Below are positions 1 to 24,649 of a stretch of 32,000 bases of DNA, one piece after another. The stretch's first letter is position 1, and each line of letters opens with the position of its first letter. The notes beneath the pieces are model-generated. The model had not been told where the DNA came from, did no database searches, and was given only the letters and a program-made list of their open reading frames with translations. The DNA comes from an uncultured Gammaproteobacteria bacterium (lineage in GTDB: Bacteria > Patescibacteriota > Microgenomatia > Daviesbacterales > UBA10151). Both the position numbers and the translations under genes were made by a program. The stretch lies in the NCBI GenBank assembly GCA_964360965.1, contig CAYHYM010000001.1, forward strand, positions 1 to 32,000, in the 5' to 3' direction.

Positions 1-988
1 GATCATCTGCTTTATAAAAGCTGTTGGGGGCTGAACGGACAAATTCCATAAACACCCCGTCAAAGCAATATTCCCGTCCGGTAGTGAGCTTCCTGCAGCT
101 TGCCAGCGAGGCCTTCAAATCATTAGTTAAATAAAATGATGCAACTCCGTGTCCTATGCCGTGAATACAGCTGGCCACCGGACCGGAGAGCCCTGGGCCC
201 AATTTTGAGCAAGCATCTTCAGCCTCATTTAGTTTGCTTAAATCTTTCTTAAAAGCCTCATCCAAAAATCCGTGGAAACAACCAAAAGCAAAATCAGGGC
301 TGCAAAGCCTTATCCCTTCAAAACCGTCAATATCATAAATTAAGCCTCCAGATAAATGAGCCAGATCATGAATATTACCTGCGGAACCACTTTGTCCTTT
401 AAAAACCGATTTCACATACTCCCAGGTTTTTTCTCCGCCTGCTGAGGAAGCCATTTTTTTTAAAACATCTATTTGTTCAGCTGAAGAAAGAGCAAGGAAA
501 TTACTGATTCCCAGGACCTGTTCTGAACCAGACGGTTTGGAAAAAATACCTTTGATTTTTCTGACCAGATCGTTAAGCATCCCCTTAATTTTTTCAATTA
601 AGTTTATTTCCATCCTATCAGCCTGACTCTCCGCCCCTCTAACTTCACCATCCTCATTGTTTACAATCAAGCTACCCCTTTGGTGAGGGATAAGATGATC
701 ATGATATTTCCACTCTCCTGCTTTTTTAGGCTTAAAAGACCATGATTGACCGACTGGAATGGGCCTTCTGGGATCAAACTCAGGGTAAATTTCATGGGTG
801 GGATGGACATTTGAAGCCGGCCAACGGGGTTTTATATCCTTATTAACAAAAATTACAACTGAGTTGGTATCAACTGTCACCTGAGTAGGTTCAAATCCAT
901 TGGGAGTCATTTCAATAACCTGAGTCTGGGAATGGGCAAAGGCTAAACAAGGGAATAACAAGTAAAGTAACACCAATAAGATTATCAC
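1..988 (-). CDS. Secreted protein, C-terminal part runs off the window: signal peptide, cupredoxin-like beta-sandwich domain, then a Cys-pair repeat domain paralogous to 4155..5336
   Basis: Absent from the ORF track because the window edge truncates it; translated by hand. GTG at 988 gives (M)IILLVLLYLLFPCLAFAHSQTQ, a signal-peptide-like start. Next comes FEPTQVTVDTNSVVIFVNKD...GEWKYHDHLIPHQRGSLIV, a cupredoxin-type pattern without the Cys ligand. Then LCSPDFAFGCFHGF...SCIHGIGHGV...YCFDGVFMEF aligns with KCKDYFLYACYHGA...QCVHAAGHSI...SCHNGAFMEN of the 393-aa ORF. Confidence 0.6.
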   Translation of the reverse strand, partial: MIILLVLLYLLFPCLAFAHSQTQVIEMTPNGFEPTQVTVDTNSVVIFVNKDIKPRWPASNVHPTHEIYPEFDPRRPIPVGQSWSFKPKKAGEWKYHDHLIPHQRGSLIVNNEDGEVRGAESQADRMEINLIEKIKGMLNDLVRKIKGIFSKPSGSEQVLGISNFLALSSAEQIDVLKKMASSAGGEKTWEYVKSVFKGQSGSAGNIHDLAHLSGGLIYDIDGFEGIRLCSPDFAFGCFHGFLDEAFKKDLSKLNEAEDACSKLGPGLSGPVASCIHGIGHGVASFYLTNDLKASLASCRKLTTGREYCFDGVFMEFVRSAPNSFYKADD

Positions 989-1033
989 TAAGGTATTTTC
1001 TCACTATGTTCGAAAAATAATCAAGTAGGAGTC

Positions 1034-3826
1034 TTAAAATCCTCTAAAGAAATCCAACAGTCTTTCCAGTAAGCTTTTTGAGCCAGACACTCCATGAACC
1101 TCTCCCGGAGTTGGGTATGCATAGGCAGGTGTTCCATATGCTGGTGTGCCATATGGTTCAGGTGTACCATAGGCTGGTGTACCATATGTCTCAGAAGGTG
1201 TGCCATAGGCTGGAGTTCCATAACTTGGAGTTCCATAAGTCCCACTTGGAGTGGGGTAAGTGGGTGATGGATAGGAATAATCGGTAGGTGTGTGATAGCC
1301 TGGTGTGTAATAAGTGGCTGAGGGAGATGGATATACATAACTACTATCACCCGGAGTTGGGTAAGAGTAAGGTTGATTGGGAGTTGGATATGGATAATTA
1401 CCACTCGGACTTGGGTAAGAGTAGCTTCCATTGTCGGCGCAGCCGGCGCAGGGAGTTGGATAGGTATATCCACTGCCTGGGGTTGGATACGAATAGCTCG
1501 GACTGGGAGAAGTATAGTTACCACCTGGTGTTGGGTATGAATAAGTTGGAGTATAGTAAGTGCTGCCAACCGGTGAATAATAAGGTGAAGTGTAAGTGCC
1601 TGGGGTAGAATAATTTATGCTGGGGGATGTATAACCTGATCCTGGCGTGTAATAAGGTGATGTGTAAGTTCCCCCCGGCGTGTAGTAGCTAGGTGAATAA
1701 TAGGTAGGTGTGTGGTAATTAGGGGTTGAATAAGGAGTGTAATAGCTTGGACTGGTGTAATTTGAACCTGGTGGAGGGGTGTAATAGCTTGGGCTGGAAT
1801 AAGGAGTGTAGTAATAAGGGGTAGAATAAGGGGGAGGAGTGTAATAGGAAGGTGATGAGTATCCTATAGGTGAGTAATATGTTGGACTGGTGTAAGAATC
1901 TCCCCCTCTAGGAGTTGGGTAAGAAGGCGTCGGATAAGGAGGAGGTGAGGTATATTCTCTGGGCGTGGGATAAATCCCCGGAGTGGGATATGATGGAGTT
2001 CCATAAGGAGGTGGAGGTGTGTAATAGCTTGGGCTGGTGTAAGTTGAGCCTGGAGGAGGAGTGTAGTAATGAGGGGTGGTATAAACAGGAGGTGTGTAAT
2101 AAACAGGTGTGGTATAGCCTCCGCCATCCCAAGGAGTGAAATATTGAGGAGTAGTGTAAGGTGGAGGGGTGCTATAGGTAGGAGTGGTATAGCCTCCAAT
2201 TGGTGTGTAGTAATAAGGAGTCATATATGGTGGAGGGGTGTAATAATAAGGTGTTGTGTAGTCTGAGCCTCTGGGAGGAGTGTAGTAGGTTGGTGATGCG
2301 TAAGTAGGGGTTGGGTATTCACCTGTTGGAGTTGGATAATTACCCCAAGGTGTATAGTAATTCGGTGTTGTATAGAGACCATAGATTGGATCGTTTGGTA
2401 TGTAGTGATAGGTAGGGGTGGGATACGTACCAGGTGTATAGTATTGAGGTGTGGTATAGGTTGAACCTTCAGGTGGAGTGGGATAAATTGGTGTTGTATA
2501 GAAAAAGGTGACAGGCGGAGTTACATAGACTGTATTAGTAGGTGGAGTATAATAGGTGTATGGAATATAAACTTCTGGCGGTCTGGGGGCTCTGTCGCTA
2601 AAGCCTTCACATTTCCCAGGATTATCCTTACAATAATCATAACAACCAGCTGGAGATGTGCATCCTCCCATTGATTCAACAGGTTCATGTTTCACTTCTG
2701 AACCAGGGGTGTAGTAAAGGTAAGGGGTTATGAAATCCTTTGGTTCTAGGATCATATCACCAATTACCACAGGCGGACAAGTCGCAGGATTAGCTTTACA
2801 GTAGTCATAACATTCACCAGGTGACTTACAATTTCCCCACTCTGGCCTTGGTTCAAAATAAGCTGAGGGATTTTCTGTTGAGATCCCTGGGGGTGCTTGA
2901 TCATGACAAGCTGTACCATCCCAGAATTTATCTGCCCCCGCACAAGCAGCAGCCGTTTGAGTGTTGGCAACAGAAGTACAAGCACCACCTGGGCCATGAT
3001 ATTCATTTGCCCCGCAAGCAACAGGCACATAAACCCCGCTGGCCCCAGGAGCATAAGCTCTGCACTGCTCAGGATTTTGTTCACAGTAAGACCTACAAGA
3101 TTCCTGAGAATTACACCCTCCAGGACCTGCAAAAGTCCCCCCGGGAGCAGCTTGCTGACAAAGGGCAAAATTATTAGGATCTGAACAGTAAGATGAACAG
3201 GTCTCTGCAGTCTGACAACCTCCAGGCCCCTCAGCAGTTGTGCCTCCTAAAAGACCTACTTGATTTGCAAAAGTAGTACATTTATCAGCATTGGCAGGAT
3301 CATCACAAACATTACTACAAGATTCTGCTGAATTACAACCTAAAGTAGTTTGGGCAATTTGTAAAAATTCAGGCTTATCAGGCTGTTGGGTATATCCTCC
3401 CGGAACCTCATTTCTCTTGGACCAACCATCACAAGCAGTATGATTATCAGGGTTAGAACAATAGGTAAAACATGCTTCTTTGGAATCACAACCCAACTCA
3501 ACTTTGGCTGTCTCAATCAGCTCATTATCATATAAGGCAGGGTCATCTCTATAAAATCCGTTTTGTTTGGCAAAACTGGTGCAGCTGTTATGATTAACAG
3601 GATCCTCACAATATTTAGTACAGGAACCTATATCTGTACAATCACCCAATACTTTAATAGGAAAAACTAGACTGGTGACAGAGGTGGAACCAGGAGCAGG
3701 AGCTGGAGAACCAGCAGGGGCAGGGCTTTGGGAGAAAGCAGGATTGGTGGCGAAAAGCGCCAAAATTAAAATAACTGCACTTAAGCCTATCAGCCTTACT
3801 AAATTAAATTTTAAAATATCTATCAT
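1034..3826 (-). CDS. 930-aa secreted protein: seven 4-Cys modules plus a very long Tyr/Thr/Pro/Ser-rich low-complexity region; putative surface fibre or matrix protein
   Basis: Longest ORF in the region. The N-terminus LIGLSAVILILALFATNPAFS|QSP looks like a signal peptide. Other-frame ORFs overlapping it on either strand translate to compositional junk. Confidence 0.85.
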   Translation of the reverse strand: MIDILKFNLVRLIGLSAVILILALFATNPAFSQSPAPAGSPAPAPGSTSVTSLVFPIKVLGDCTDIGSCTKYCEDPVNHNSCTSFAKQNGFYRDDPALYDNELIETAKVELGCDSKEACFTYCSNPDNHTACDGWSKRNEVPGGYTQQPDKPEFLQIAQTTLGCNSAESCSNVCDDPANADKCTTFANQVGLLGGTTAEGPGGCQTAETCSSYCSDPNNFALCQQAAPGGTFAGPGGCNSQESCRSYCEQNPEQCRAYAPGASGVYVPVACGANEYHGPGGACTSVANTQTAAACAGADKFWDGTACHDQAPPGISTENPSAYFEPRPEWGNCKSPGECYDYCKANPATCPPVVIGDMILEPKDFITPYLYYTPGSEVKHEPVESMGGCTSPAGCYDYCKDNPGKCEGFSDRAPRPPEVYIPYTYYTPPTNTVYVTPPVTFFYTTPIYPTPPEGSTYTTPQYYTPGTYPTPTYHYIPNDPIYGLYTTPNYYTPWGNYPTPTGEYPTPTYASPTYYTPPRGSDYTTPYYYTPPPYMTPYYYTPIGGYTTPTYSTPPPYTTPQYFTPWDGGGYTTPVYYTPPVYTTPHYYTPPPGSTYTSPSYYTPPPPYGTPSYPTPGIYPTPREYTSPPPYPTPSYPTPRGGDSYTSPTYYSPIGYSSPSYYTPPPYSTPYYYTPYSSPSYYTPPPGSNYTSPSYYTPYSTPNYHTPTYYSPSYYTPGGTYTSPYYTPGSGYTSPSINYSTPGTYTSPYYSPVGSTYYTPTYSYPTPGGNYTSPSPSYSYPTPGSGYTYPTPCAGCADNGSYSYPSPSGNYPYPTPNQPYSYPTPGDSSYVYPSPSATYYTPGYHTPTDYSYPSPTYPTPSGTYGTPSYGTPAYGTPSETYGTPAYGTPEPYGTPAYGTPAYAYPTPGEVHGVSGSKSLLERLLDFFRGF
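1106..2569 (-). repeat. Degenerate low-complexity coding repeat (~488 aa) built from YYTPP / YTSPSYYTP / YPTP / YGTPA units
   Basis: Residues ~420-907 of the 930-aa ORF are almost only Y, T, P, S and G, with Tyr every 3-5 residues. Units are degenerate at DNA level, so this is not a recent perfect tandem array. One CxxC (PTPCAGCADNG) is embedded. Confidence 0.85.
2609..3640 (-). repeat. Seven copies of a module G-C-x5-C-x3-C-x(6 or 8)-C containing (D/N)P, plus a C-x11-C-x11-C-x11-C segment
   Basis: Module Cys positions are 63/69/73/82, 113/119/123/132, 164/170/174/183, 204/210/214/223, 238/244/248/255, 333/339/343/350 and 389/395/399/406. Examples are GCDSKEACFTYCSNPDNHTAC and GCTSPAGCYDYCKDNPGKC. 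Cys 271/283/295/307 are spaced exactly 12 residues apart. Confidence 0.8.
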
Positions 3827-3844
3827 TTATTTACTTATTACCAT

Positions 3845-4102
3845 TTACTTATTAACAGTAAATGGATTTTTATAAGTTTCAAACGGATTAACATACTGAG
3901 TTTCTTTCTTAAAAGGATTTTTATATTCGGTTTTAAGTTCTACCTTTGGTCCTTTTTGGCCTATTCCGGGAATAGATGGAAGTTTAATAAGGCCACGGGA
4001 AATAGCCACATAGGCGCCAATTGCCAAAGCAACTATCAAAAGAAGAGGCAACAGGTGTATGATACCTGCCTGACGGCCGGGCAGGTCTCTTTTTCTATCC
4101 AT
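3845..4102 (-). CDS. 85-aa single-pass membrane protein with three C-terminal Y-x-NPF repeats
   Basis: MDRKRDLPGRQAG is followed by the TM segment IIHLLPLLLIVALAIGAYVAI. The tail carries EYKNPFKK, QYVNPFET and TYKNPFTV. A strong promoter-like site lies directly upstream. Confidence 0.6.
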   Translation of the reverse strand: MDRKRDLPGRQAGIIHLLPLLLIVALAIGAYVAISRGLIKLPSIPGIGQKGPKVELKTEYKNPFKKETQYVNPFETYKNPFTVNK

Positions 4103-4109
4103 TAATATA

Positions 4110-4139
4110 TTATTAGAATAAGTGAAAAGTGTTTGTCAA
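4110..4139 (-). promoter_or_regulatory. Sigma70-like promoter placing the transcription start at or next to the ATG of the 85-aa gene
   Basis: Minus strand reads TTGACA (4139-4134), 18 nt, TAATAA (4115-4110), 7 nt, ATG (4102). No Shine-Dalgarno sequence lies between them. Confidence 0.5.
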
Positions 4140-4154
4140 TAGGGCAAAACAGCC

Positions 4155-5336
4155 TCAATTTAGGGAAGCAATGCCGGAAAAACACTGGTTATTAAAAGGG
4201 GGCTCAATTTTTTGGCACAACTGCTGTTTGGCATCTTTTTCAATGGGGTCTGACAAGATCTGGCTAATCACCCTCTGGTAACATTCCTGTTTTAAGTGAG
4301 GAGGCACATTTTGACAAATAAACAAAGCCTGATCTCTTCCCCCAACAGAATAAAATGAGCCGGCATTGACCACCAGACAGTTGTCATACCACTTTTCGCC
4401 TTCCTGTTTACAAAGTTCAAAAGATTTAGCCGGATCACCTTGAGTTAAAGGATGGATTTGCCTAGCCACATTATCCATACACCAAGCCTCATATTCTTCA
4501 TTTCCCACTGCTTGACAAAGCTCGGAGGTCTTCACCATATCCCCATTATTCATCTGATAAATCCTGGCTGCCTGATTTAACCAGCAACCTTTCTGGTATT
4601 TTTCCTCAAACCCGTTGCAGGGAAAATACGGGTCTTCAGATAACCAGTCCCTTTTTTGCTCTTTTCCGGTACCCCAATCATGAACTCCAAACAGATTTTC
4701 CATAAAAGCTCCATTATGACAAGAAGACAGCGCCTCGGGAAACTGAGTATCTTTTTCATAAATTTGATCACAAGTTTGCATGGCCTTGGGTAAATCATAA
4801 TTCCAGATGGCTAAAATGGAGTGGCCTGCCGCATGGACACACTGGAAATGGCGGACAGGAGAGGATTTACACTTGTCAGTCATTTTGGCAATGGCTTCAA
4901 ATCCCTGATCGGATGCCGCCTCAATGATGGCCCCATGATAACAGGCGTACAAAAAGTAATCTTTGCATTTTAGCATGGAGTCAATGCCGTATTTTTGATA
5001 AGCATAAAAACCTATTTGATGCACCACCAGATGGCCCTCACCGGTATGGGGGAGGGTGGAACGCTCCAAAATCTCCAAGGCCTGCTCCACATCTACCCGC
5101 TCCACTAATTTCCTGGCAGCTTTTAGTCTGGTATCCTGGCTCTCCGTTTGTAGGATATCTTTTAATTCTGGTACTTCACTTTCAGTATAATTTTTTATCT
5201 CTTTAACATCTTTAATTGAGGCAACCGCTGGATTATTAACCTTAGGTTTAACAGTAATTTCAAAGTGTTCTTTAAAATAAACTAAACCAACCAAAAAGCC
5301 AATAAATAAAAATATCAGTGGAGTATTCTTAAACAT
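4155..5336 (-). CDS. 393-aa N-terminally membrane-anchored protein with ~8 Cys-pair helical-type repeats; paralog of the C-terminal domain of 1..988
   Basis: TM segment TPLIFLFIGFLVGLVYF. Repeated units have the form C-x(8-20)-C-aromatic/aliphatic-(H/N/D)-(G/A), for example KCKDYFLYACYHGA, QCVHAAGHS, SCHNGAFMEN, GCWLNQAA, WCMDNVA, NCLVVNAG, ECYQRVI and QCFSGIA. I recognise no named family. Confidence 0.75.
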   Translation of the reverse strand: MFKNTPLIFLFIGFLVGLVYFKEHFEITVKPKVNNPAVASIKDVKEIKNYTESEVPELKDILQTESQDTRLKAARKLVERVDVEQALEILERSTLPHTGEGHLVVHQIGFYAYQKYGIDSMLKCKDYFLYACYHGAIIEAASDQGFEAIAKMTDKCKSSPVRHFQCVHAAGHSILAIWNYDLPKAMQTCDQIYEKDTQFPEALSSCHNGAFMENLFGVHDWGTGKEQKRDWLSEDPYFPCNGFEEKYQKGCWLNQAARIYQMNNGDMVKTSELCQAVGNEEYEAWCMDNVARQIHPLTQGDPAKSFELCKQEGEKWYDNCLVVNAGSFYSVGGRDQALFICQNVPPHLKQECYQRVISQILSDPIEKDAKQQLCQKIEPPFNNQCFSGIASLN

Positions 5337-5843: not shown

Positions 5844-6983
5844 ATGACTGCTGATGAAAAGTTTAGCTTAATTACCAGAAATTTAGAAGAAACTTTAACA
5901 GAAGAAGAGTTAAAAAGTCTGATTGATTCCGGTAAACCTTTAAAACATTACATAGGTTTTGAAATTTCCGGAAAAGGTCATGTAGGGTGGGTTTATACCA
6001 TGCAAAAAATTAAAGATTTACAAGATGCGGGAGTAGAAATAAATATCTTACTGGCAGATTGGCATACCTGGCTTAATAAAAAATTGGATGGGACCTTAGA
6101 GACAGCAAAAAGGATGGCCGGGGAATATTTTGAAGAGGCTCTCAAGGCTTGCGCTTTATGCGCCGGAGCAGATCCCAATAAGATTAATTTTGTTTTGGGT
6201 AGTAAGCTTTATGAAAAATTAGGGTCCGGTTATTGGGCCCTCGTTGTTAAAGTTGCTAAAGCCACCACTTTGTCAAGAATGATCAGATCAACTACCATTA
6301 TGGGTAGAAAAGAGTCTGAAATTTCAGATTCCGCCATGTTAATTTACCCTGCCATGCAATCTGCTGATATTTTTGCTTTAGGGGTTAATATTGCTCATGC
6401 AGGAACAGATCAAAGAAATGTGCATGTGGTGGCCAGGGAAGCAGCTGCCAGCCTGGATCAACAAAAACCTGTGGCCATTCACCATCATCTTTTGCAAGGA
6501 CTTCTTCAACCGGTTTTTACAACAGATGAGAATGGTAAGAAAATGCTTGATATTGAGGCAGCCAAGATGAGCAAGTCCAAACCAGATTCTGCCATTTATA
6601 TTCATGATGAACCGGAGGAAATAAAAAGAAAAATCAATGCAGCATATGCGCCTGAGGGAGTAGTGGAATTTAATCCTATATTAGATTGGACTAACCATCT
6701 TATTTTGAGGCTCCAGGGGGACGCCTTGGAGGTTCACTTGGAGGTTCAACGGGATCAGAAATGGGGAGGGGACAAAACATATACATCTTATGGGGATTTA
6801 GAAAAAGATTATACTGATAAGAATTTACATCCACAGGATTTAAAAAATGCTGTTACAGATTGGTTAATTAAAAAATTGGAACCAGCCAGAAGGTATTTTG
6901 AAGATCCAAAAAGAAAAAAGGCTTTAGAGGAGATTGAAAGGTTAACTTCTAATCCTTATCTTATATCACTATCTGCAAAATAA
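5844..6983 (+). CDS. tyrS: Tyrosyl-tRNA synthetase, archaeal/eukaryotic type
   Basis: The protein is colinear with the Methanocaldococcus jannaschii TyrRS sequence as I recall it. Matches include YIGFEISGKGHVG (HIGH region), ILLADWHTWLN, the KMSKS motif and LHPQDLKNAVTDWLIKKLEPARRYF. There is no bacterial S4-like C-terminal domain. Confidence 0.85.
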   Translation: MTADEKFSLITRNLEETLTEEELKSLIDSGKPLKHYIGFEISGKGHVGWVYTMQKIKDLQDAGVEINILLADWHTWLNKKLDGTLETAKRMAGEYFEEALKACALCAGADPNKINFVLGSKLYEKLGSGYWALVVKVAKATTLSRMIRSTTIMGRKESEISDSAMLIYPAMQSADIFALGVNIAHAGTDQRNVHVVAREAAASLDQQKPVAIHHHLLQGLLQPVFTTDENGKKMLDIEAAKMSKSKPDSAIYIHDEPEEIKRKINAAYAPEGVVEFNPILDWTNHLILRLQGDALEVHLEVQRDQKWGGDKTYTSYGDLEKDYTDKNLHPQDLKNAVTDWLIKKLEPARRYFEDPKRKKALEEIERLTSNPYLISLSAK

Positions 6984-7285
6984 TAGGCAAATGCTTCAGC
7001 AACTACCACTCCGGCTACAACTCCTGCCAAGCTTAGCCCCCAAATATACAAACCGTTCTCCCATCTATAATAAGCTGGAGCCCATAGATACAAAGAAGAC
7101 TGAACTAAGCTTGCGCCCAGTACTGCTCCCACTGGAAACAGTCTTTCTCTCCACCTATCTACTGTTTCACGAAAGCTTGGAGGAATGACAGGAGCAGGAA
7201 TTGGTTGTTCAACTATTCCTTCCTTTCCTTCCTCTTCTAAAATTTGAGCCACTTCTCTTTCTGCTAAAGTTTCAGGAAACGGCAT
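6956..7285 (-). CDS. 109-aa hypothetical protein with two TM helices
   Basis: Hydrophobic segments LFPVGAVLGASLV and IWGLSLAGVVAGVVVAEAF. GAGGTGA (complement of 7299-7305) lies 13 nt upstream of the ATG. The 3' end overlaps the tyrS end by 28 nt, convergently. Confidence 0.5.
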   Translation of the reverse strand: MPFPETLAEREVAQILEEEGKEGIVEQPIPAPVIPPSFRETVDRWRERLFPVGAVLGASLVQSSLYLWAPAYYRWENGLYIWGLSLAGVVAGVVVAEAFAYYFADSDIR

Positions 7286-12620: not shown

Positions 12621-13319
12621 TTACTCAAATGGATTAACTTTGCCTTTGGAGACAAAAGATGGTTGAGCGGCCACTGCCTGAGATGGAAAATTTACTTCCA
12701 AGTTGGTCAGAAACTCTTCATCTTTTTCTGTTAATTTTGGCAAAGGAGCATCCAGATCCCCCAAAGATGAAGGCAGTGGGGCATAAAAAATATCCACACT
12801 CAAGGATACTTGAGACACCCCGGAGGCCCTGGCAGTGGTGATCTCAATCCCGGAAACCTTCATCACACGGACAGAATCCTCAATACCTGATAAAAGTTGA
12901 GGCATCAGCGCGGATGGCCCTGACAGCTCCAGTTTGGTGGTAAAATCAGGCACTGCCTGAGCTGTCTGGGGCAATATTGCTACTTGAAAAGAAACCAGCG
13001 TAAAACCGTTTTTTAAAACAATATTCTGCAGCGCGCCAATGATTTGCGGCAGTTCTTTATCAACAGGCAGTGACAATAGAGATAAACTTACTTTTTTGGA
13101 CAGCTCATCTTGGTCAAAACCTGAAAGATCTTGCGCCTTAACTTCCAAAAGGTAAGATCCTTGGGAAAGATTGAGAATTGTTTTATTATCCAAAAGATAG
13201 TTTTTAATTTGAGGGAAGATTACAAAAACTATCAAAATTACAGAAGAGAAAGCCACCAGCAGGGGGAAAACTATCAGTTTATATTTTTGATAAAAATTTA
13301 TTAAGGGCAAAATATTCAT
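12621..13319 (-). CDS. pilO: PilO-like type IV pilus alignment protein
   Basis: It sits directly after pilM-pilN. It has one N-terminal TM segment (LIVFPLLVAFSSVILIVFVIF) and is 232 aa long. It ends in KGKVNPFE. The call rests on context and architecture only. Confidence 0.55.
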   Translation of the reverse strand: MNILPLINFYQKYKLIVFPLLVAFSSVILIVFVIFPQIKNYLLDNKTILNLSQGSYLLEVKAQDLSGFDQDELSKKVSLSLLSLPVDKELPQIIGALQNIVLKNGFTLVSFQVAILPQTAQAVPDFTTKLELSGPSALMPQLLSGIEDSVRVMKVSGIEITTARASGVSQVSLSVDIFYAPLPSSLGDLDAPLPKLTEKDEEFLTNLEVNFPSQAVAAQPSFVSKGKVNPFE

Positions 13320-13321
13320 TT

Positions 13322-13861
13322 TTATTTAATTTTTAAGTTTGTCCTATATACTCCGTCCCTGCCCCGGGACAGGTTTTCTATATCAACAGCCCCAATTTTA
13401 CCTTCGTTTATCTGCGGGTCTACCAGATCTCTCAAAAATAAATCCAGGGATAAATAATCAGCAGTGATGGCGGATAAATTGACATTACCGGCCCGATCAG
13501 CCCCAAAAGAATTAACAATAATGGAGGGGGGGATAATGGCGGATATTAAATTAAAAAGCTGGGACTGTTTGGAAGGGTTAGATTTAATCTGTCTAATATT
13601 TGTAACCCTTGATTTTAAAACTTGCAGTTTTGCCTCCTGATCTTTAAGCTCAGACACTTTCCCTTGAGCTTGTTCAAATTTTTCCCTCGCCAGCGTCAGA
13701 TTTTGGCTTTGCAGAATCCTTAAAGCAAAAACTGTGGATGACAAAAAAGTTAAAATCACCATGACTGCAATAGACAAAACGCGGATTTTGTAAAACTTTT
13801 GTCCTTGTTTTTGAGCAAGGTTCACCTCCGGGGGTAATAAATTAATAGTGATTTTTTCCAT
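13322..13861 (-). CDS. pilN: PilN (fimbrial assembly protein)
   Basis: N-terminal INLLPPE motif (the PilM-binding INLLP), one TM segment, then a coiled-coil region. Confidence 0.8.
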   Translation of the reverse strand: MEKITINLLPPEVNLAQKQGQKFYKIRVLSIAVMVILTFLSSTVFALRILQSQNLTLAREKFEQAQGKVSELKDQEAKLQVLKSRVTNIRQIKSNPSKQSQLFNLISAIIPPSIIVNSFGADRAGNVNLSAITADYLSLDLFLRDLVDPQINEGKIGAVDIENLSRGRDGVYRTNLKIK

Positions 13862-14899
13862 TTATTCCTCTCTCAGCGCCAAACCAACTGCCACAGAGTA
13901 GAGCGGAGCCTCCTGGGACAGTTTAGAAACTAAAGATTTATCCTTTTGGATTAAATACCAGGGATCTGCCTCCTGCACCTCCAGCCCCAGACTGTGGGCC
14001 AGGTAAATTACCAGTCCCGGCATTTTGGCTCCTCCTCCTGAGAGCACCACTCTTTTGAGCCTGTTTTGGGGATGTTTGACCTCATAAGATTGAATTACTC
14101 TTTTGATCTCCTCCAAAATTACATCCACCACAGGTTTTAAGGCTGCAAAAACCTTACCTTCCAACTGATCCTCAACCAGTCCGTAAACCTTTTTATATTC
14201 TTCTGCTTGCAAGAGCTCAAAATTAAAATTTTTGGAAAGGGAACGGGTCAGGGCCAATCCGCCTGTAGAGATGGAACGGGTCAGCAGGATCAGCCCTTTT
14301 GATATAGCAACCAAATCAGTGGTGGTGGCGCCCATTTGAATAATTAAAGTATTAGGGGAAAAGGGATTATTGCCAACCAGGGAGCGGGCTGCCGCAATTA
14401 CCTCTGTTTCCAAAACTCTGGGAGTAAGTCCTGCCATATTAAGAACTTTAATATATTTTTGGATGACATTTTTGGGTGAGGCCACCACAAAAACGACAGT
14501 TCTCCCTTTTTTATCTTTCTCATCTGCTCGGGAGAGCATCTGCCAGTATAAATTAACCTCTGATGAGGGCATGGGAATAAATTCCTCCGAAGCAAAGCGG
14601 ATGGCAGAAGACAGTTCAGAATCGGAAAGATAGGGCAAATCATCTATCACTCTGGTAAAAACCCGCGACTCAGGAAGTGCTGCTACCACTTCTCTTTCTT
14701 CAATTCTGGCAGCCTCCATCAGCTTTTTAATAGCCACAGCCACTTGCTCAAGCTCTATATCAGAATCAGACAGCATGCCGGGCGAAGGCGCAGGAATTGC
14801 CCCCAAAGACACCAACCTAAACTGGTTATCTTTCTTGGATAAAACCACCACTTTAACTGAAGAGAACCCAATATCCAGTCCTACAGAAATTTTGGCCAT
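13862..14899 (-). CDS. pilM: PilM (actin-like ATPase-fold pilus assembly protein)
   Basis: ISVGLDIGFSSVKVVVL phosphate-1-like motif, GATTTDL and LSGGGAKMPGL. The ATG at 14899 is preferred. The track TTG at 14920 lies inside the heptamer repeat. Confidence 0.85.
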   Translation of the reverse strand: MAKISVGLDIGFSSVKVVVLSKKDNQFRLVSLGAIPAPSPGMLSDSDIELEQVAVAIKKLMEAARIEEREVVAALPESRVFTRVIDDLPYLSDSELSSAIRFASEEFIPMPSSEVNLYWQMLSRADEKDKKGRTVVFVVASPKNVIQKYIKVLNMAGLTPRVLETEVIAAARSLVGNNPFSPNTLIIQMGATTTDLVAISKGLILLTRSISTGGLALTRSLSKNFNFELLQAEEYKKVYGLVEDQLEGKVFAALKPVVDVILEEIKRVIQSYEVKHPQNRLKRVVLSGGGAKMPGLVIYLAHSLGLEVQEADPWYLIQKDKSLVSKLSQEAPLYSVAVGLALREE

Positions 14900-14904
14900 A
14901 TCTT

Positions 14905-14936
14905 CATTGTCAATTGTCAATTGTCAATTGTCAATT
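14905..14936. repeat. Tandem heptamer CAATTGT (three perfect plus two partial units)
   Basis: cattgt caattgt caattgt caattgt caatt. It fills the 35-nt gap between the stop of the 600-aa gene and the pilM ATG. On the minus strand it reads as four TTGACA hexamers at 7-nt spacing. Confidence 0.9.
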
Positions 14937-16737
14937 ATTTGACTTGGTATGTTCCTTTAACCAGAGTATAAGACCCTCCCGGACCTGATGTAAACAGGAT
15001 GGAGGATAAACCTGTTTCATAATCTATTATTGACTCATTGGTTATTTTTATTTTCCAGGCTGTTATCTCTTTAAATTGGTTATTATTACCCGGATCAATA
15101 ATTCCTTTGTCCGCATAAAATACTCCGCTATTGCCTACATTGCCAATGGTGATGGCACTATTGTTATTGGTTCTTGAATCATAAGTAGACAAAAGTACCA
15201 GTATACTGTTTCCTTCACCCGTACCCAAGAGTTTATTTTGATTACCCATGATAGCCTTTCCATTAGTTCCATCAGTCCCTAAAACTATTATCCCGGAACC
15301 AGTCCCATAAGAGGAATCTAGTATAAACCTATTCTCATTACCCATGGTAATATCTCCTGCTATCCATATCGGAGTTTTTACCTTAATGATGCACTGATTG
15401 CCCAAAGTCAGGTTGCCGCTAAATTTACCCGGGCCCCAGGCAGTTTGTGAACCGCAAACAGGTTGCGAAAGGGAGCCTGCAGCTACCGCCTCATTTTTCC
15501 ATCCTGTTATATTAGCTTCGGATATAGGGAAGGTTTTGGGAGGGGGGTCTTCCGATCCAGGATGACAGTGTGAATTGGGACAAGCACTACCTGAAACAGT
15601 TGAATTAGTAATAGTCTGATAATAAGCATCTTTATCTATAATCAATCTGTCTATTGTATTTGCATGAGCATCACCGTTAACCCTAGTATTATTTCCTGAA
15701 AGCAGGGAATTGGTAGTTCCGCCCATATAAGCCTTAAAGCTTAGGTCTCCGGAAAAGGAATTCCAGCTAGGATTAGCAGCACTCCAGTTAGGTGACCATT
15801 TAGGTTGACCATTGTTGTAGCTTTGAGCCAAGTCATTTTGCCATGACCAGTAATTATTATTATCAGAGGAAGTATCGACCATAATCCAATAAGAAATGTC
15901 TGCGGAGAGTGTGGGATTTGTGGAAAAGGTCACATCTATCCATCCGTATTCAGTTATCACCAAGCTGCTTGAAAGAGTTCCTGTAGCAAATACCTCATTT
16001 TTTTTAGGCTGTCCGCTATCGTCACCCAAAATTCTGACAGTTACATCCGGAGGATTACCGAATTTTTTTAACTTGAGAGAGACTTTTCTTATTTTATTTG
16101 TCACTTGTGGCCTAAAGCTTTGAGCAATATCCAATCTGTTTTGACTGTCAATTGTTTTCCCAAATAAATAGTCTACACAATTTGATCCTTCACAATCTGT
16201 CTGCTGATCGGCAGTCGGAGGAACACCTGCTGCCACCCATGCATCACCGGTGATAATATTACCATTACCCATAATGATACTGCCGTTTGAATAAATCGAA
16301 CCTTTAATTGTATTTTCATTACCAAGCTGTAATCCTCCTTCTCCCACCTGTATACCGTAAATAAAGGCCGCCCCAACTCCTTTGGAAGTCTCTATCCTTA
16401 AGGTCTTTTTAACCTTGGGGGAAGTTTTATTGGGGATGTATCCGGTGGAGGTGATAACTTTGGTGGCTACATCTTTAGTGGTAATAACAACAGCATATGA
16501 TCCGTCTGATAAAGCTGTCTCTGTCTCACCTGAATAACTGCCGCCGGTTTTATTAAGTGATACCAAAGCCTTATCCACTCCGGCTTCAGCCAGACCAAGG
16601 GCTTTTTCCGATCTGGTTGAGTAAACGGCATTTTGCCAATATACTTGAGCCCCTCCTATGATCACCAAGGTCAATACCAGCATCACCCCCACCACAATCA
16701 GCACTATGGGAAAAATCTGACCCCTTGAACTAATCAT
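14935..16737 (-). CDS. 600-aa PilX_N-type anchored pilus-associated protein; putative tip adhesin
   Basis: N-terminus RGQIFPIVLIVVGVMLVLTLVII followed by ALGLAEAGVDKAL, a PilX N-terminal-type motif. There is no Glu at +5. Gly/Asn-rich beta-helix-like repeats occur (GNENTIKGSIYSNGSIIMGNGNIITGD, MGNENRF, MGNQNKL). Confidence 0.6.
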   Translation of the reverse strand: MISSRGQIFPIVLIVVGVMLVLTLVIIGGAQVYWQNAVYSTRSEKALGLAEAGVDKALVSLNKTGGSYSGETETALSDGSYAVVITTKDVATKVITSTGYIPNKTSPKVKKTLRIETSKGVGAAFIYGIQVGEGGLQLGNENTIKGSIYSNGSIIMGNGNIITGDAWVAAGVPPTADQQTDCEGSNCVDYLFGKTIDSQNRLDIAQSFRPQVTNKIRKVSLKLKKFGNPPDVTVRILGDDSGQPKKNEVFATGTLSSSLVITEYGWIDVTFSTNPTLSADISYWIMVDTSSDNNNYWSWQNDLAQSYNNGQPKWSPNWSAANPSWNSFSGDLSFKAYMGGTTNSLLSGNNTRVNGDAHANTIDRLIIDKDAYYQTITNSTVSGSACPNSHCHPGSEDPPPKTFPISEANITGWKNEAVAAGSLSQPVCGSQTAWGPGKFSGNLTLGNQCIIKVKTPIWIAGDITMGNENRFILDSSYGTGSGIIVLGTDGTNGKAIMGNQNKLLGTGEGNSILVLLSTYDSRTNNNSAITIGNVGNSGVFYADKGIIDPGNNNQFKEITAWKIKITNESIIDYETGLSSILFTSGPGGSYTLVKGTYQVK

Positions 16738-17290
16738 TTCTCAAATTTGCCTCTGATGTGGCCACATTTGTCTCCTCTTCTCTGCCTGTTTTTTGTTTTA
16801 ACCTTAAGGTAATTTTGACTTTGACAGCAGAGGTGGGGGAAACTGCTATCCCCAAGGAGTCAAAATAGGCAAAATTAACACTGTCCACATTCAGTGACAA
16901 TATTTGATCCTGTGATTTTCTGCTACTTAAACTATCGGGGAAAAGCTTAAAAATTAGTTTGTCTGAATCTTTACTAAAAACCACGAAGTCAAAAGTATTT
17001 ATTAAAACATTGTCAGAAGAATCAATGGAGGGAATTTTTAAAACCACTGTTGAAGAGGAAGAGGTGTAATCAGGGGAAATCACAGGATATCCGGATGCCA
17101 CAGATTGGGCCTCCTTTAAAAACCCCCGGATTTTACTCAGAGTGTCATTGATTGATAAACCTTGAGAAACTTTTTGAGATTGATTATAGAAAACCCCGCT
17201 GCCTTGTACCAAAATCCCAAGCAGTAGCCCTCCCACTAAAACTGCCACCACTGAAGCGATGATGACCTCAGGCAGGGTAAAACCTCTCAC
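16730..17290 (-). CDS. Prepilin-type minor pilin
   Basis: MRG|FTLPEVIIASVVAVLVGGLLLG is a class III signal with Glu+5. Confidence 0.75.
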   Translation of the reverse strand: MRGFTLPEVIIASVVAVLVGGLLLGILVQGSGVFYNQSQKVSQGLSINDTLSKIRGFLKEAQSVASGYPVISPDYTSSSSTVVLKIPSIDSSDNVLINTFDFVVFSKDSDKLIFKLFPDSLSSRKSQDQILSLNVDSVNFAYFDSLGIAVSPTSAVKVKITLRLKQKTGREEETNVATSEANLRND

Positions 17291-17709
17291 AATCCTCCTT
17301 CTGAGATCAAAGTCTGCAATTTAACTTCTCTATCTTTACCTTCCTCTTTCCATTTCACAGATGCTATAACATTTTTGGCATTTTCAGAAAGGGTACAAAC
17401 ACTGGCAGGACAATTCTCCACCAGGGTTTTCCCCAAAGAAGAAGGTAGCAGATTTAACCTGGAATCTATAATATTATTTTCACCGTCTGCCAAATTAATA
17501 TAACCTGTGGTCCTTTTATCCTCCAAAGCTTTGCTGGCTATTTCCCGGGCCAAACTTTCATGTCGCGATCTTCCAATCAGGTTAACAGAGGGGGGGATAT
17601 TGGCAATCACCAGAATTAAAAAACCAACTGTGGCTATCACCAAAAGTATCTCCACCAGGGAAACACCTTTACTTTGAAATTTCTCCTGCTGAAAAAATGG
17701 CATAGTCAA
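17287..17709 (-). CDS. Prepilin-type minor pilin
   Basis: ...QSKG|VSLVEILLVIATVGFLILVI with Glu+5. Its start overlaps the end of the upstream gene. Confidence 0.7.
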   Translation of the reverse strand: MTMPFFQQEKFQSKGVSLVEILLVIATVGFLILVIANIPPSVNLIGRSRHESLAREIASKALEDKRTTGYINLADGENNIIDSRLNLLPSSLGKTLVENCPASVCTLSENAKNVIASVKWKEEGKDREVKLQTLISEGGL

Positions 17710-18550: not shown

Positions 18551-18570
18551 ATATTCACGTTATCATATGG

Positions 18571-20238: not shown

Positions 20239-20285
20239 AATTTAAACGTACCATATTTCCTGGGCAACTACCAACTGGATTACCC

Positions 20286-21050: not shown

Positions 21051-21056
21051 AGATAT

Positions 21057-22164: not shown

Positions 22165-22175
22165 ATTCTTGTTTA

Positions 22176-22184
22176 ATTATAACA
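22176..22184 (-). promoter_or_regulatory. Extended -10 element TGTTATAAT between pilin paralogs
   Basis: Minus strand reads TGTTATAAT, 11 nt, ATG (22164). No clear -35. Confidence 0.35.
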
Positions 22185-22187
22185 TAA

Positions 22188-23152: not shown

Positions 23153-23186
23153 AATGATTTATCATTGCCATAATCTGGATTGATTG

Positions 23187-24041: not shown

Positions 24042-24055
24042 TATAAACCCTAAAA

Positions 24056-24604: not shown

Positions 24605-24610
24605 ACTCTC

Positions 24611-24619
24611 TCACCTCCT
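24611..24619 (-). promoter_or_regulatory. Shine-Dalgarno AGGAGGTGA for pilA
   Basis: The plus strand tcacctcct is the complement of AGGAGGTGA. It lies 6 nt upstream of the TTG start at 24604. Confidence 0.7.
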
Positions 24620-24649
24620 CTCAAAAATCAAAATTTTACTAACCATATT

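What the first reader, a model, noticed from the sequence alone, without database searches (positions are those of the whole stretch)
1..5336. Co-oriented cassette of four exported Cys-rich proteins around a giant Tyr/Pro/Thr protein: candidate uncharacterised surface-fibre system
Four tightly spaced minus-strand genes (gaps of 52, 18 and 45 nt) all carry a signal peptide or N-terminal TM anchor. They are a 393-aa anchored Cys-pair-repeat protein, an 85-aa TM protein with NPF repeats, the 930-aa protein, and a secreted cupredoxin-like protein fused to the same Cys-pair-repeat domain. Two paralogs of an unnamed domain bracketing a huge Tyr-rich substrate-like protein looks like a structural protein with its processing or anchoring partners. 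The cupredoxin-type domain raises the possibility of oxidative Tyr chemistry, such as dityrosine or DOPA-type cross-linking, as in extensins and mussel foot proteins. That functional idea is pure inference. I recognise no described system with this composition.
Basis: partly seen in the sequence, partly recalled or inferred. Interest (0 to 1): 0.75.

Follow-up and report, generated by a model that had tools for sequence, protein, structure and literature searches.

The report
Conserved tyrosine-rich envelope protein cassette
Four neighbouring genes of an uncultured groundwater bacterium (Microgenomates, candidate phyla radiation) encode a giant exported tyrosine/proline/threonine-rich protein, its small membrane partner and two exported histidine-rich helical-repeat proteins; none belongs to a described family, the set stays together across related lineages, and it probably builds and matures a cell-surface fibre or stalk.

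Summary
In detail: the coordinates, gaps of 52, 18 and 45 nt, export signals, A/D paralogy and the cupredoxin call all hold. Only B lacks cysteines.

The adjacency is not fortuitous. A-B-C-D order recurs in at least 14 of 15 sufficiently long loci from Levy-, Davies-, Chisholm-, Curtiss- and Gottesmanbacteria, in different flanks.

- **B-C is the core pair.** It also occurs with tyrosine-poor C paralogs.
- **A and D accompany only the tyrosine-rich C:** 2 of 2 against 0 of 6 in loci recruited through C.
- **The A/D domain is new.** It is a roughly 300-aa disulfide-stapled alpha-solenoid absent from Pfam, NCBIfam and PDB. It has 2765 clusters, near-invariant residues (five His plus Met-Glu-Asn) and frequent fusion to a Cys-less cupredoxin. 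That cupredoxin's HPxH and W.YHDH motifs resemble the trinuclear-cluster ligands of multicopper-oxidase domain 1.
- **All C proteins end in an undescribed tail,** VQGVSTxRxLLDxIxDFxxR.
- **A GT-C-like glycosyltransferase-like gene lies in or next to the cassette** in five Tyr-rich loci.

The best reading is a surface stalk or fibre protein, possibly glycosylated, with metal-dependent maturation factors. Oxidative tyrosine chemistry is plausible but unproven.

The parts
4155..5336 (-). Gene A (393 aa): N-terminal membrane anchor (residues 5-21, nt 5274..5324) plus an exported disulfide-stapled alpha-solenoid domain (residues ~97-393, nt 4158..5048). Signature motifs: HTGEGHLVVHQIG (5010..5048), CYHG (4932..4943), CVHAAGH (4821..4841), CHNGAFMEN (4695..4721), CWLNQ (4572..4586).
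   Evidence: ORF; one hydrophobic segment; 370 homologs, the top 120 at 70% identity or more, all in Microgenomates; AF2 pLDDT 90.4, all-alpha with long/short helix pairs; no PDB fold match better than generic HEAT/ARM/TPR; no Pfam or NCBIfam hit.
3845..4102 (-). Gene B (85 aa): single-pass membrane protein (TM nt 3995..4063) with an extracellular tail carrying three (Y/x)xNPF motifs (nt 3848..3934). It is the obligate upstream partner of every C-family gene.
   Evidence: invariant Y60, N62-P63-F64, N72-P73-F74, K78, P80-F81; B homologs directly precede Tyr-poor C paralogs in L028-L032, overlapping them by 4 nt in L028-L031; no consistent Pfam hit.
1034..3826 (-). Gene C (930 aa): signal peptide (3731..3826); Cys-rich N-terminal domain with 32 Cys, seven C-x5-C-x3-C-x6-8-C units (about 2597..3664); Tyr/Pro/Thr/Ser low-complexity region built from Y-x-[TS]-P units (1112..2506); conserved C-terminal tail EVHGVSGSKSLLERLLDFFRGF (1037..1111).
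   Evidence: composition and motifs; family alignment; tail conserved in Tyr-rich and Tyr-poor members; no Pfam, NCBIfam or PDB relative.
1..988 (-). Gene D (first 329 codons; the gene runs off the window): signal peptide (935..988, predicted cleavage AFA|H); Cys-less cupredoxin-like domain (653..934) with WPASN (809..823), HPTH (794..805), HDH (695..703), IPH (683..691); linker; start of an A-type solenoid (2..406) with NIHDLAH, CFHG, CIHGIGH, CFDGVFME.
   Evidence: A full-length ortholog, P0330 (458 aa), was modelled at pLDDT 91.4, pTM 0.82. Foldseek hits are to cupredoxins only.

Best explanation
The cassette encodes a cell-envelope structure conserved across Microgenomates.

**Proposed roles**
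- C is a secreted structural protein. It has a disulfide-rich globular head, a 360-580-residue uncharged Tyr/Pro/Thr/Ser segment that probably forms an extended stalk or fibre and may be O-glycosylated, and a conserved C-terminal amphipathic tail that anchors or sorts it.
- B, a small membrane protein with three extracellular NPF motifs, is C's obligate partner. It probably acts as a membrane dock or assembly factor.
- A (membrane-anchored) and D (secreted, with a Cys-less cupredoxin-like domain) are paralogous metal-binding alpha-solenoid proteins. They were recruited specifically to the tyrosine-rich form of C.
- Their most likely job is metal-dependent, probably copper-dependent, oxidative maturation of the Tyr-rich segment, for example Tyr-Tyr or quinone-type cross-linking into an insoluble wall or fibre layer.

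**Shown:** gene order and its conservation, export signals, domain folds, conserved residue sets, and the co-occurrence of A/D with Tyr-rich C.

**Inferred:** surface location of a fibre, glycosylation, metal identity, and any oxidative chemistry.
For: **Synteny**
- A-B-C-D occurs in the same order in at least 14 of 15 loci with enough sequence, from five candidate phyla or orders.
- The flanks differ: atpC and a class A PBP in many loci, NUDIX and TyrRS here.
- The cassette was also found independently through C (L035).

**Specificity**
- Six loci with only Tyr-poor C paralogs keep B in five (the small ORF in L033 is masked).
- They have no A/D solenoid or cupredoxin domain within 7 kb.
- A positive control found both domains in 6 of 6 A-D loci.
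- The Tyr-rich loci recruited through C both have solenoid genes (L034, L035).

**Metal-site signature of the solenoid**
- H14, H18, H46, H81, H85, M120 and E121 are conserved at 96% or more, and N122 at 87%, across 169 very divergent domain copies.
- All paired Cys are also conserved.
- The superfamily has 2765 clusters at 50% identity.

**Recurrent fusion to the D-type cupredoxin**
- 31 of 67 representatives of 430 aa or more carry it.
- 7 of 10 are confirmed by Pfam, and one also carries a genuine plastocyanin/azurin-type domain.

**Cupredoxin residues**
- WPASN, HPxH, FD and HDH are kept in 111 orthologs and 32 divergent copies.
- W.YHDH aligns with YHCH and WYHSH of multicopper oxidases.
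- His follows the predicted signal-peptidase site in 92 of 111 orthologs.

**Other support**
- A GT-C-like gene lies inside or beside the cassette in L006, L012, L014, L016 and L035 (sub-threshold PMT_2, GtrII and EpsG hits for four; L035 judged from N-terminal sequence resemblance only), with GT2 genes upstream. A PMT_2 gene also lies next to the Tyr-poor C paralog in L028.
- CPR bacteria encode MdbA/VKOR-type disulfide machinery for exported proteins (bioRxiv 10.1101/335083).
- From established knowledge: Tyr-rich extracellular structural proteins such as extensins, mussel foot proteins, insect and helminth egg-shell proteins and Bacillus spore-coat proteins are typically hardened by copper or haem oxidases.
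Against: - No catalytic activity, metal content or cross-link has been observed.
- The cupredoxin domain lacks the type-1 Cys (Asp at the amicyanin Cys92 position). It is a single domain, so it cannot be a conventional laccase.
- The solenoid fold has no match to tyrosinase, haemocyanin, peroxidase or any known oxidase.
- Position 115, which is His in A, is Tyr or Trp in most of the family, so there is no six-His dicopper site.
- I could not inspect model coordinates, so I do not know whether the conserved His residues converge.
- The solenoid superfamily is far wider than Tyr-rich neighbours, reaching up to 8 tandem copies in giant proteins. Its basic function is therefore more general.
- L020 has A directly followed by D, with no B or C nearby.
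- The GT-C-like hits are below Pfam thresholds and concern only 5 of about 20 Tyr-rich loci.
- Many CPR bacteria live with little oxygen.
Confidence: 0.4

Rival explanations
1. A and D are non-catalytic binding or anchoring scaffolds. The solenoid groove, lined by the conserved His/Asn/Gln/Glu stripe, binds the extended Tyr/Pro-rich polyproline-like segment of C, as ARM, HEAT and TPR solenoids bind extended peptides. In this way A tethers the fibre to the membrane and D caps or bundles it. The conserved His residues would be structural or ligand-contacting rather than redox-active.
For: - The only fold neighbours are peptide- or RNA-binding solenoids: transportin, beta-catenin, PPR and LapB TPR.
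- A is membrane-anchored while D is secreted.
- Conserved polar residues sit at equivalent depths on successive long helices.
- A/D occur only with the Tyr-rich C.
- Tandem multi-copy architectures are typical of binding modules.
Against: - Five near-invariant His plus Met-Glu across 169 very divergent copies, and obligate Gly neighbours (HG, GHG), are more typical of a metal or cofactor site than of peptide recognition.
- The recurrent fusion to a His-rich cupredoxin-like domain is unexplained by pure binding.
- The superfamily is much broader than Tyr-rich partners.
Confidence: 0.3
2. The A/D proteins form an extracytoplasmic metal (copper or iron) handling system analogous to EfeO/EfeM, that is a cupredoxin plus helical metal-binding domain together with a helical-only paralog. 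On this reading C and B form an independent envelope module that happens to be a stable neighbour, or acts as a metal-binding matrix.
For: - The best Foldseek hit of D is EfeO (7wgu), followed by the metal-bound B. anthracis Cupredoxin_1 (4hcf, 4hcg) and FtrB (8vuk).
- EfeO exists as Cup+M75 and M75-only forms (PMC9174327), which parallels D and A.
- L020 keeps A-D without B-C.
- The superfamily occurs in many other contexts.
Against: - The helical domain is not imelysin/M75-like. It has no Pfam M75 hit, and no EfeM or imelysin appears among A's fold hits.
- No permease (EfeU/Ftr1) or peroxidase gene appears in any locus.
- The strict association with Tyr-rich but not Tyr-poor C is unexplained.
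Confidence: 0.12
3. A and D are enzymes or binding proteins for a cell-wall glycan or polysaccharide (lyase, hydrolase or lectin-like alpha/alpha repeat proteins). The locus would then be a wall-biogenesis island in which C is one glycoprotein component.
For: - The cassette commonly lies between GT2 and GT-C-like genes and a class A PBP with VanW.
- The conserved Tyr, His, Asn, Gln and Arg are of the types used by alpha/alpha polysaccharide lyases (own knowledge).
Against: - No fold or sequence match to any glycoside hydrolase or lyase family.
- Five invariant His plus Met is atypical for such enzymes.
- The Tyr-poor loci L030-L032 have the same PBP or GT2 flanks but no A or D.
Confidence: 0.1
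4. The adjacency is fortuitous, or C is not a real gene but a low-complexity ORF.
For: DNA-level tandem repeats are weak. The promoter and terminator scans are uninformative.
Against: - The same order recurs in more than 14 loci across five lineages with different flanks.
- C orthologs share 50-65% identity, the same 32-Cys head, the same composition and a conserved tail.
Confidence: 0.01

Closest known systems
EfeO / EfeM (EfeUOB iron-uptake system): cupredoxin-like domain plus helical M75 metal-binding domain, with an M75-only paralog
   Same: Both are extracytoplasmic. Both have an N-terminal non-blue cupredoxin-like domain fused to an all-helical His/Glu-bearing domain, and both have a helical-only paralog (D and A parallel EfeO-I and EfeM). 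EfeO is the top Foldseek hit of D (PMC9174327).
   Different: The helical domain here is a disulfide-stapled solenoid, not the imelysin double four-helix bundle. There is no HxxE M75 signature or Pfam hit. No EfeU or EfeB partners occur. The neighbours are a Tyr-rich structural protein and a small NPF protein.
Multicopper oxidases (laccase, CotA, Fet3p), domain 1
   Same: Both have the cupredoxin fold. HPxH and W-x-Y-H-D-H align with the HxH and WYHSH/YHCH motifs whose His residues ligate the trinuclear copper cluster. Laccase-type enzymes oxidise phenols and cross-link Tyr-rich coat proteins (own knowledge).
   Different: There is a single cupredoxin domain. There is no type-1 site (Cys replaced by Asp). 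There is no second His-motif-bearing cupredoxin domain to complete a trinuclear cluster. E-values to MCOs are weak (1.6e-3 to 0.2).
Sel1-like-repeat cysteine-rich proteins (Helicobacter Hcp family)
   Same: Both are exported alpha/alpha repeat solenoids in which each repeat of about 35 residues is stapled by a local disulfide (pattern; Hcp from own knowledge).
   Different: There is no Pfam Sel1 or TPR match above noise. The Cys spacing differs (8-17 residues). An invariant His5/Met/Glu/Asn set is present that Hcp proteins lack.
Deoxyhypusine hydroxylase (HEAT-repeat di-iron enzyme)
   Same: It sets a precedent for an alpha-solenoid that is a metalloenzyme. Its metal ligands (four His-Glu motifs) come from successive helical hairpins, and it acts on a protein substrate (PMC9117371).
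   Different: There is no sequence or fold-search relationship. DOHH is cytosolic, has no disulfides and has a different ligand set.
Tyr-rich cross-linked structural proteins with their oxidases (plant extensins with peroxidases; mussel foot proteins with tyrosinase; Bacillus spore-coat Tyr-rich proteins with CotA)
   Same: All are secreted, repetitive, rich in Pro, Ser, Thr and Tyr, nearly uncharged and extended. Here the gene also lies next to putative metal proteins and, in some genomes, GT-C-like glycosyltransferase-like genes.
   Different: There is no homology. C has no SPPPP or YxY extensin motifs and no Lys-rich decapeptides. No cross-links have been demonstrated. The accessory proteins are unrelated to peroxidases, tyrosinases or laccases.
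C-terminal protein-sorting signals (LPXTG/sortase, PEP-CTERM, GlyGly-CTERM, PGF-CTERM)
   Same: All have a short conserved motif (here VQGVST) followed by a hydrophobic or amphipathic stretch of about 15 residues and terminal basic residues at the extreme C-terminus of exported proteins.
   Different: There is no NCBIfam match. The helix contains conserved acidic residues and is too polar for a TM segment. No sortase-like enzyme is encoded nearby. So far the tail has been seen only on the C family.

Membership tests
Cupredoxin fold (Pfam PF13473 Cupredoxin_1) | Greek-key beta-sandwich recognised by the family HMM above the gathering score | tested here: met
   D scores E=6.1e-7, 29.9 bits against a cut-off of 27. 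The AF2 model of the ortholog superposes on plastocyanin, amicyanin and Cupredoxin_1 structures with TM 0.7-0.8 for the target. Profile against amicyanin gives E=2e-7.
Type-1 (blue) copper proteins | His, Cys, His, Met/Gln ligand set in the C-terminal loop (C-x(n)-H-x(n)-M) | tested here: not met
   The alignment to amicyanin places Asp at Cys92. His95 and Met98 are not matched. There is no Cys in the domain in 111 orthologs.
Multicopper oxidases | Two or more cupredoxin domains carrying four His motifs (HxHG, HxH, HxxHxH, HCHxxxHxxxxM) | tested here: not met
   Most family members carry one cupredoxin-like domain per protein (two in three of the 31 representatives that have one). Only HPxH and HDH are present, and the central Cys is absent.
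EfeO (Cup + peptidase-M75/imelysin) | C-terminal imelysin-like domain with the HxxE metal motif | tested here: not met
   There is no Pfam M75 or imelysin hit for A or D. The fold search with A returns no imelysin or EfeM.
Histidine-brace copper proteins (LPMO, CopC, PmoB CuB site) | His as residue 1 of the mature protein, coordinating Cu with a second His | tested here: inconclusive
   His follows the predicted AxA cleavage site in 92 of 111 D orthologs and in 9 of the 21 divergent members whose cupredoxin domain is N-terminal. In other members the same cupredoxin domain is C-terminal or internal. The cleavage site and geometry could not be tested.
Sel1-like / TPR repeat families | Match to the Sel1 or TPR repeat HMMs | tested here: not met
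   The only hit is TPR_19 at E=0.17, outside the repeat region. Structural resemblance is generic, with TM 0.3 or less.
Type-3 copper proteins (tyrosinase / haemocyanin) | Six His on a four-helix bundle; family HMM or fold match | tested here: not met
   There is no Pfam hit and no fold match. The sixth His (A His207) is Tyr or Trp in most of the superfamily.
Type IV pilins / pseudopilins (for B) | Class III leader G|F-x-x-x-E recognised by the N_methyl HMM | tested here: not met
   B orthologs begin nQKG-VIHL.LPLLLL, with no Glu5. None of 18 members hits N_methyl or PilX_N even at E up to 10. The window's own pilins do hit N_methyl.
Known C-terminal sorting domains (LPXTG, PEP-CTERM, GlyGly-CTERM and others in NCBIfam) | Match to a curated sorting-signal model | tested here: not met
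   NCBIfam returned no such hit for C at E up to 1.
Extensin / hydroxyproline-rich glycoproteins | Ser-Pro3-5 repeats with YxY cross-link motifs; Hyp-O-glycosylation | tested here: not met
   The dominant units are Y-x-[TS]-P (54 copies). No SPPPP blocks occur. Glycosylation is not testable here.

The most novel reading that the evidence does not exclude
A and D define a new class of extracellular metallo-oxidase. An invariant His5/Met/Glu site on a disulfide-stapled alpha-solenoid would cooperate, in cis or in trans, with a Cys-less cupredoxin domain that resembles multicopper-oxidase domain 1. The enzyme would oxidatively cross-link an extensin-like, glycosylated Tyr/Pro/Thr protein into the cell envelope of Microgenomates. 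That protein would be sorted through a previously undescribed C-terminal VQGVST signal and a dedicated NPF-motif membrane partner. Taken together, this would be a bacterial counterpart of plant extensin networks and a first molecular handle on the CPR cell surface.
Probability: 0.2. Interest if true: 0.85.

Novelty: categorically new. Interest (0 to 1): 0.68.

Why it matters
**The open question.** CPR (Patescibacteria) bacteria make up a large share of bacterial diversity, yet the composition of their cell surface is essentially unknown. That surface is what mediates attachment to hosts or minerals. Earlier surveys noted only that most Microgenomates-enriched families are exported hypothetical proteins (bioRxiv 10.1101/335083).

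**What this cassette offers**
- A concrete, conserved, testable module: a giant Tyr-rich protein with a defined head, stalk and tail, and an obligate small membrane partner.
- Two members of a very large, unnamed, probably metal-binding domain superfamily (2765 clusters at 50% identity).

**If the metal-dependent maturation idea holds,** it would add a new oxidase scaffold and a prokaryotic analogue of extensin-type or quinone-tanned matrices.

**Even if it does not,** four findings are worth curating as new families:
- the solenoid domain;
- the HPxH/HDH cupredoxin subfamily;
- the B-C pairing;
- the C-terminal tail.

Tried and rejected
- **Family searches.** Pfam and NCBIfam on all four proteins gave only Cupredoxin_1. 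Giant multi-copy family members gave no Pfam hit.
- **PDB sequence and profile searches.** Searches with A, D and the C head gave nothing except cupredoxins.
- **Six-His dicopper site in A.** I considered a tyrosinase-like site because the spacing H-x3-H-x27-H and H-x3-H-x34-H resembles arthropod haemocyanin. I rejected it as a family feature. The sixth position is Tyr or Trp in most members, and no fold match exists.
- **Haem peroxidase, LanC-like, imelysin and polysaccharide-lyase folds.** None is supported by Foldseek.
- **B as a minor pilin or PilX-like protein.** Its leader resembles that of the window's gene at 17669..18550. HMMs do not support this.
- **Obligate histidine brace in D.** This is weakened because the domain is C-terminal or internal in other family members.
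- **Exceptional conservation of A.** This needs tempering. TyrRS is equally conserved in the same genome pairs.
- **Operon signals and RNAs.** The promoter and terminator scan matches shuffled expectation. The tRNA and Rfam scans were empty.
Full report
**1. What is in the sequence**

Four minus-strand ORFs occupy 1..5336.
- A is at 4155..5336 (393 aa).
- B is at 3845..4102 (85 aa).
- C is at 1034..3826 (930 aa).
- D runs from GTG at 988 off the window start (329 codons seen).

The gaps are 52, 18 and 45 nt. Two in-frame stops lie just upstream of D's GTG, so that start is fixed.

Each product has exactly one hydrophobic segment, at its N-terminus.
- A has an anchor without a cleavage motif.
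- B has a TM after a basic N-terminus.
- C has a signal peptide ending PAFS|QS.
- D has a signal peptide ending AFA|HSQ.

A has 16 Cys as eight sequential pairs, and B has none. C has 34 Cys, 32 of them in the first 410 residues. They form seven C-x5-C-x3-C-x6-8-C units plus four more Cys.

C residues 441-905 are 23% Pro, 22% Tyr, 19% Thr, 12% Ser and 9% Gly. This segment has 106 Tyr, no Lys and only 15 charged residues. It is built from 54 Y-x-[TS]-P units (YYTP, YPTP, YTTP, YTSP, YGTP). DNA-level tandem repeats are weak, so the composition is maintained rather than recently expanded.

The strong positive GC skew at 1-3 kb coincides with this Tyr/Pro/Thr-rich coding region, and I take it to reflect that codon usage.

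**2. The organism and the wider window**

Exact or near-exact copies of A, B and C occur on groundwater metagenome contigs (Hain_H51, 0.1 µm fraction). Named homologs are all Microgenomates: Levy-, Davies-, Chisholm-, Curtiss-, Gottesman- and Roizmanbacteria.

The rest of the window holds housekeeping genes: NUDIX, TyrRS, RecG, NusB, RNase III, S16, TrmD, a DNA polymerase III delta-subunit domain protein and GyrB. It also holds a complete type IV pilus cluster at 12.6-28.7 kb. No RNA genes were found.

**3. Is the cassette real?**

A genome scan with A returned 22 loci. BLAST of all ORFs in these loci against the four window proteins shows A-B-C-D in the same order wherever the contig is long enough. 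These loci are L004, L008, L013, L014, L015, L016, L017, L018, L019, L021, L026, L027, L011 and L006.

Identities to the window proteins are:

| Protein | Identity range |
|---|---|
| A | 54-83% |
| B | 43-69% |
| C | 50-65% |
| D | 42-58% |

The flanks differ. In many genomes the cassette lies between atpC (with or without GT2 genes) and a class A PBP with VanW. In this window it follows TyrRS and NUDIX.

Several variants occur.
- D can carry a second solenoid copy (786-863 aa).
- A second B'-C' pair can follow D (L011, L018).
- Extra solenoid paralogs occur (L006, L023, L024, L034).
- A Crp-type regulator sits between A and B in five loci.
- A GT-C-like membrane protein sits between C and D in L014, L016 and L035, after C in L012 and before A in L006. 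It gives sub-threshold hits to PMT_2 (6.9e-5), GtrII (3.5e-6) and EpsG. The L035 gene was not scanned against Pfam. I assign it from the resemblance of its N-terminal sequence to the others.
- One locus (L020) has A directly followed by D, with no B or C within 8 kb.

A is about as conserved as TyrRS between the same genomes: 75% against 81% in L009, and 68-75% against 71% in L026. That is high for an exported hypothetical protein, but not extraordinary.

**4. B-C is the core; A and D go with tyrosine**

The C family found with the N-terminal domain has two parts. One is the Tyr-rich orthologs. The other is a set of Tyr-poor subfamilies with 32-60 Cys and PT-, AP- or Q-rich linkers.

All complete members end in the same tail, with consensus V-[QH]-G-[VIA]-[SA]-T-x-[RK]-x-[LIF]-[LFW]-[DEQ]-x-[IL]-[ILW]-[DN]-[FW]-[FL]-x-x-[KR].
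- 57 members match a strict pattern.
- More than 20 further members match looser variants.
- Members lacking the tail are truncated inside the repeat at contig ends.

NCBIfam has no model for this tail. In the DNA examined, it occurs only on C-family proteins.

I looked up six Tyr-poor members (L028-L033).
- In five, a B homolog with the three NPF motifs directly precedes the C-like gene, overlapping it by 4 nt in L028-L031. The small ORF in L033 is masked.
- None of the six loci contains an A/D solenoid or D-type cupredoxin within 7 kb.
- The same HMMs find both domains in all six control loci.
- L031 even has the same atpC-GT2x3 ... Crp-PBP neighbourhood as the A-D loci.

Two Tyr-rich members recruited through C alone (L034, L035) both have solenoid genes. 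L035 has the full A-B-C-(GT-C-like)-D cassette.

Ten further Tyr-rich C hits share contig lengths with D hits. This suggests the genes lie on the same contigs, but the match is indirect.

For the C-recruited sample the split is 2 of 2 against 0 of 6. By my own count, a Fisher exact test gives p of about 0.04, uncorrected for phylogeny. This is the strongest evidence that A and D act on or with the Tyr-rich segment rather than on the head or tail.

**5. The A/D domain**

An exhaustive HMMER search found 2765 clusters (at 50% identity) at E of 1e-3 or better, and 1290 at 1e-10 or better. Many have 2-8 tandem copies, in proteins up to 3580 aa.

No member tested has any Pfam domain other than cupredoxins.

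AF2 models are confident.
- The D ortholog P0330 has pLDDT 91.4 and pTM 0.82.
- A residues 51-393 have pLDDT 90.4 and pTM 0.84.

Both show an all-alpha solenoid of alternating long (15-17 residue) and short (8-10 residue) helices. Each Cys pair brackets an inter-helix loop, which suggests a local disulfide staple. CPR bacteria encode MdbA/VKOR-type machinery for this.

Foldseek against the PDB gives no hit better than E=0.012 or TM 0.3, and the hits are only generic HEAT, ARM, TPR and PPR solenoids.

Across 169 divergent domain copies, the near-invariant residues fall into five motifs:
- H-x3-H-x2-G
- G-C-Y-H-G
- C-x-H-G-x-G-H-G
- C-[YW]-x-G-V-F-M-E-N
- C-[YW]-x-x-Q

All paired Cys are also conserved. 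Five His, a Met, a Glu and an Asn, conserved at 87-100% over such divergence and flanked by Gly, point to a metal or cofactor site or an active site.

I could not examine coordinates, so convergence of these residues is untested.

**6. The cupredoxin-like domain**

D's domain passes the Pfam threshold. It superposes on plastocyanin, amicyanin, the metal-bound B. anthracis Cupredoxin_1, FtrB and the EfeO Cup domain.

The type-1 ligands are absent. Asp aligns with amicyanin Cys92.

In their place, 111 orthologs and 32 divergent copies conserve W-P-A-S-N, H-P-x-H, F-D and H-D-H. A further P-H, at 110 of 111, is conserved in the orthologs only.

In profile alignments, G.W.YHDH lines up with YHCH and WYHSH of nitrite reductase and laccases. 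H-P-T-H lines up with their HxH motif (E from 1.6e-3 to 0.2). In those enzymes, as far as I know, these are the His residues that ligate inter-domain copper centres.

His follows the predicted signal-peptidase site in 92 of 111 orthologs. This recalls a histidine brace. However, in other family members the same domain is C-terminal or internal, so the point is unresolved.

The domain accompanies the solenoid in 31 of 67 representatives of 430 aa or more. One of these also carries a genuine plastocyanin/azurin-type domain.

The D (Cup plus helical domain) and A (helical domain only) pair parallels EfeO-I and EfeM. The helical domains are nevertheless unrelated.

**7. Mechanism**

*Shown*
- A conserved cassette exists.
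- All four products are exported or anchored.
- B-C is an obligate pair.
- A/D associate with Tyr-rich C.
- A/D and the cupredoxin domain carry conserved His-rich sites.

*Inferred*
- C is an envelope stalk or fibre. Its head is outermost or binds a partner. Its neutral Y-x-T-P segment is extended and may be O-glycosylated by the GT-C-like enzyme found in some cassettes. Its tail is an amphipathic anchor or sorting signal.
- B is C's membrane dock.
- A/D are metal-dependent maturation factors, most plausibly oxidative Tyr cross-linking. This is by analogy with extensins and peroxidase, mussel proteins and tyrosinase, and spore coats and CotA.

*Confidence*
- I put about 0.75 on 'conserved envelope module centred on C'.
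- I put about 0.25-0.3 on oxidative Tyr chemistry specifically.
- I put 0.4 on the combined statement.

*Rivals*
- Non-catalytic binding or anchoring solenoids: 0.3.
- An EfeO-like metal-handling module: 0.12.
- Glycan-acting proteins: 0.1.

**8. Comparison and novelty**

Only the cupredoxin fold membership is met. Every other membership test failed or was inconclusive: type-1 copper, MCO, EfeO/M75, Sel1, type-3 copper, pilin, known CTERM signals and extensin (see the membership table).

Four elements have no described counterpart in Pfam (2025), NCBIfam 20, the PDB or the papers searched:
- the solenoid superfamily;
- the HPxH/HDH cupredoxin subfamily;
- the C head;
- the VQGVST tail together with the B partner.

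I rate the cassette as categorically new in the sense of an undescribed system built from undescribed families. Its function remains an inference.

Noticed in passing
window 12621..28665 (minus strand): A complete type IV pilus cluster of the kind found in bacteria without an outer membrane. It includes PilO-like and PilN-like genes, PilM, two PilX_N-like large proteins (600 and 293 aa), at least seven pilins with a (K/S)G|FTLVELLVV leader, prepilin peptidase (23187..24041), PilC, a PilT-like ATPase and PilB. It lies 7 kb from the cassette, and this adjacency is not conserved in other genomes.
   Followed up: partly
window 20319..20996 (minus strand): An IS200-like Y1 transposase gene (Pfam Y1_Tnp, E=2e-9) sits inside the pilin gene array. 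A Y1_Tnp gene also lies near the cassette region in L031.
   Followed up: no
L011, L013, L015, L022, L026 (between A and B); L031 14316..15005: A Crp/Fnr-type regulator (cNMP_binding plus HTH_Crp_2) is inserted between A and B in five cassettes. It also lies next to the PBP in a Tyr-poor locus. It may regulate the envelope module.
   Followed up: partly
L014 12355..13788, L016 4146..5597, L012 7505..8452, L006 6527..7954, L035 9228..10811, L028 8307..9707: A GT-C-like polytopic membrane protein lies inside or directly beside the cassette. In L014, L016, L012 and L006 the Pfam hits (PMT_2, GtrII, EpsG) are sub-threshold. In L028 the PMT_2 hit is a precomputed one. The L035 gene was assigned from the resemblance of its N-terminal sequence only. 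Three GT2 genes often lie upstream of A. Together these hint at glycosylation of C or of a wall polymer.
   Followed up: partly
L006 12340..16953: Four additional tandem solenoid paralogs (388, 378, 396 and 387 aa; 16-20 Cys each) follow C in this Microgenomates genome. This is a local expansion of the A/D family.
   Followed up: no
L028 4353..6663; L034 10933..12887: Camelysin/TasA-like (Peptidase_M73) and SipW-like signal peptidase (S26) genes lie near C-family genes in two loci. They recall the Bacillus tapA-sipW-tasA fibre operon.
   Followed up: no
L020 7810..10344: In this Levybacteria genome A is immediately followed by D, with no B or C within 8 kb downstream. A and D can therefore persist as a pair without the adjacent structural genes.
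   Followed up: partly
window 6956..7285 (minus strand): A 109-aa ORF with a hydrophobic C-terminal half and no Pfam hit lies between TyrRS and RecG. It is also called as a gene on the ENA contig L001.
   Followed up: no
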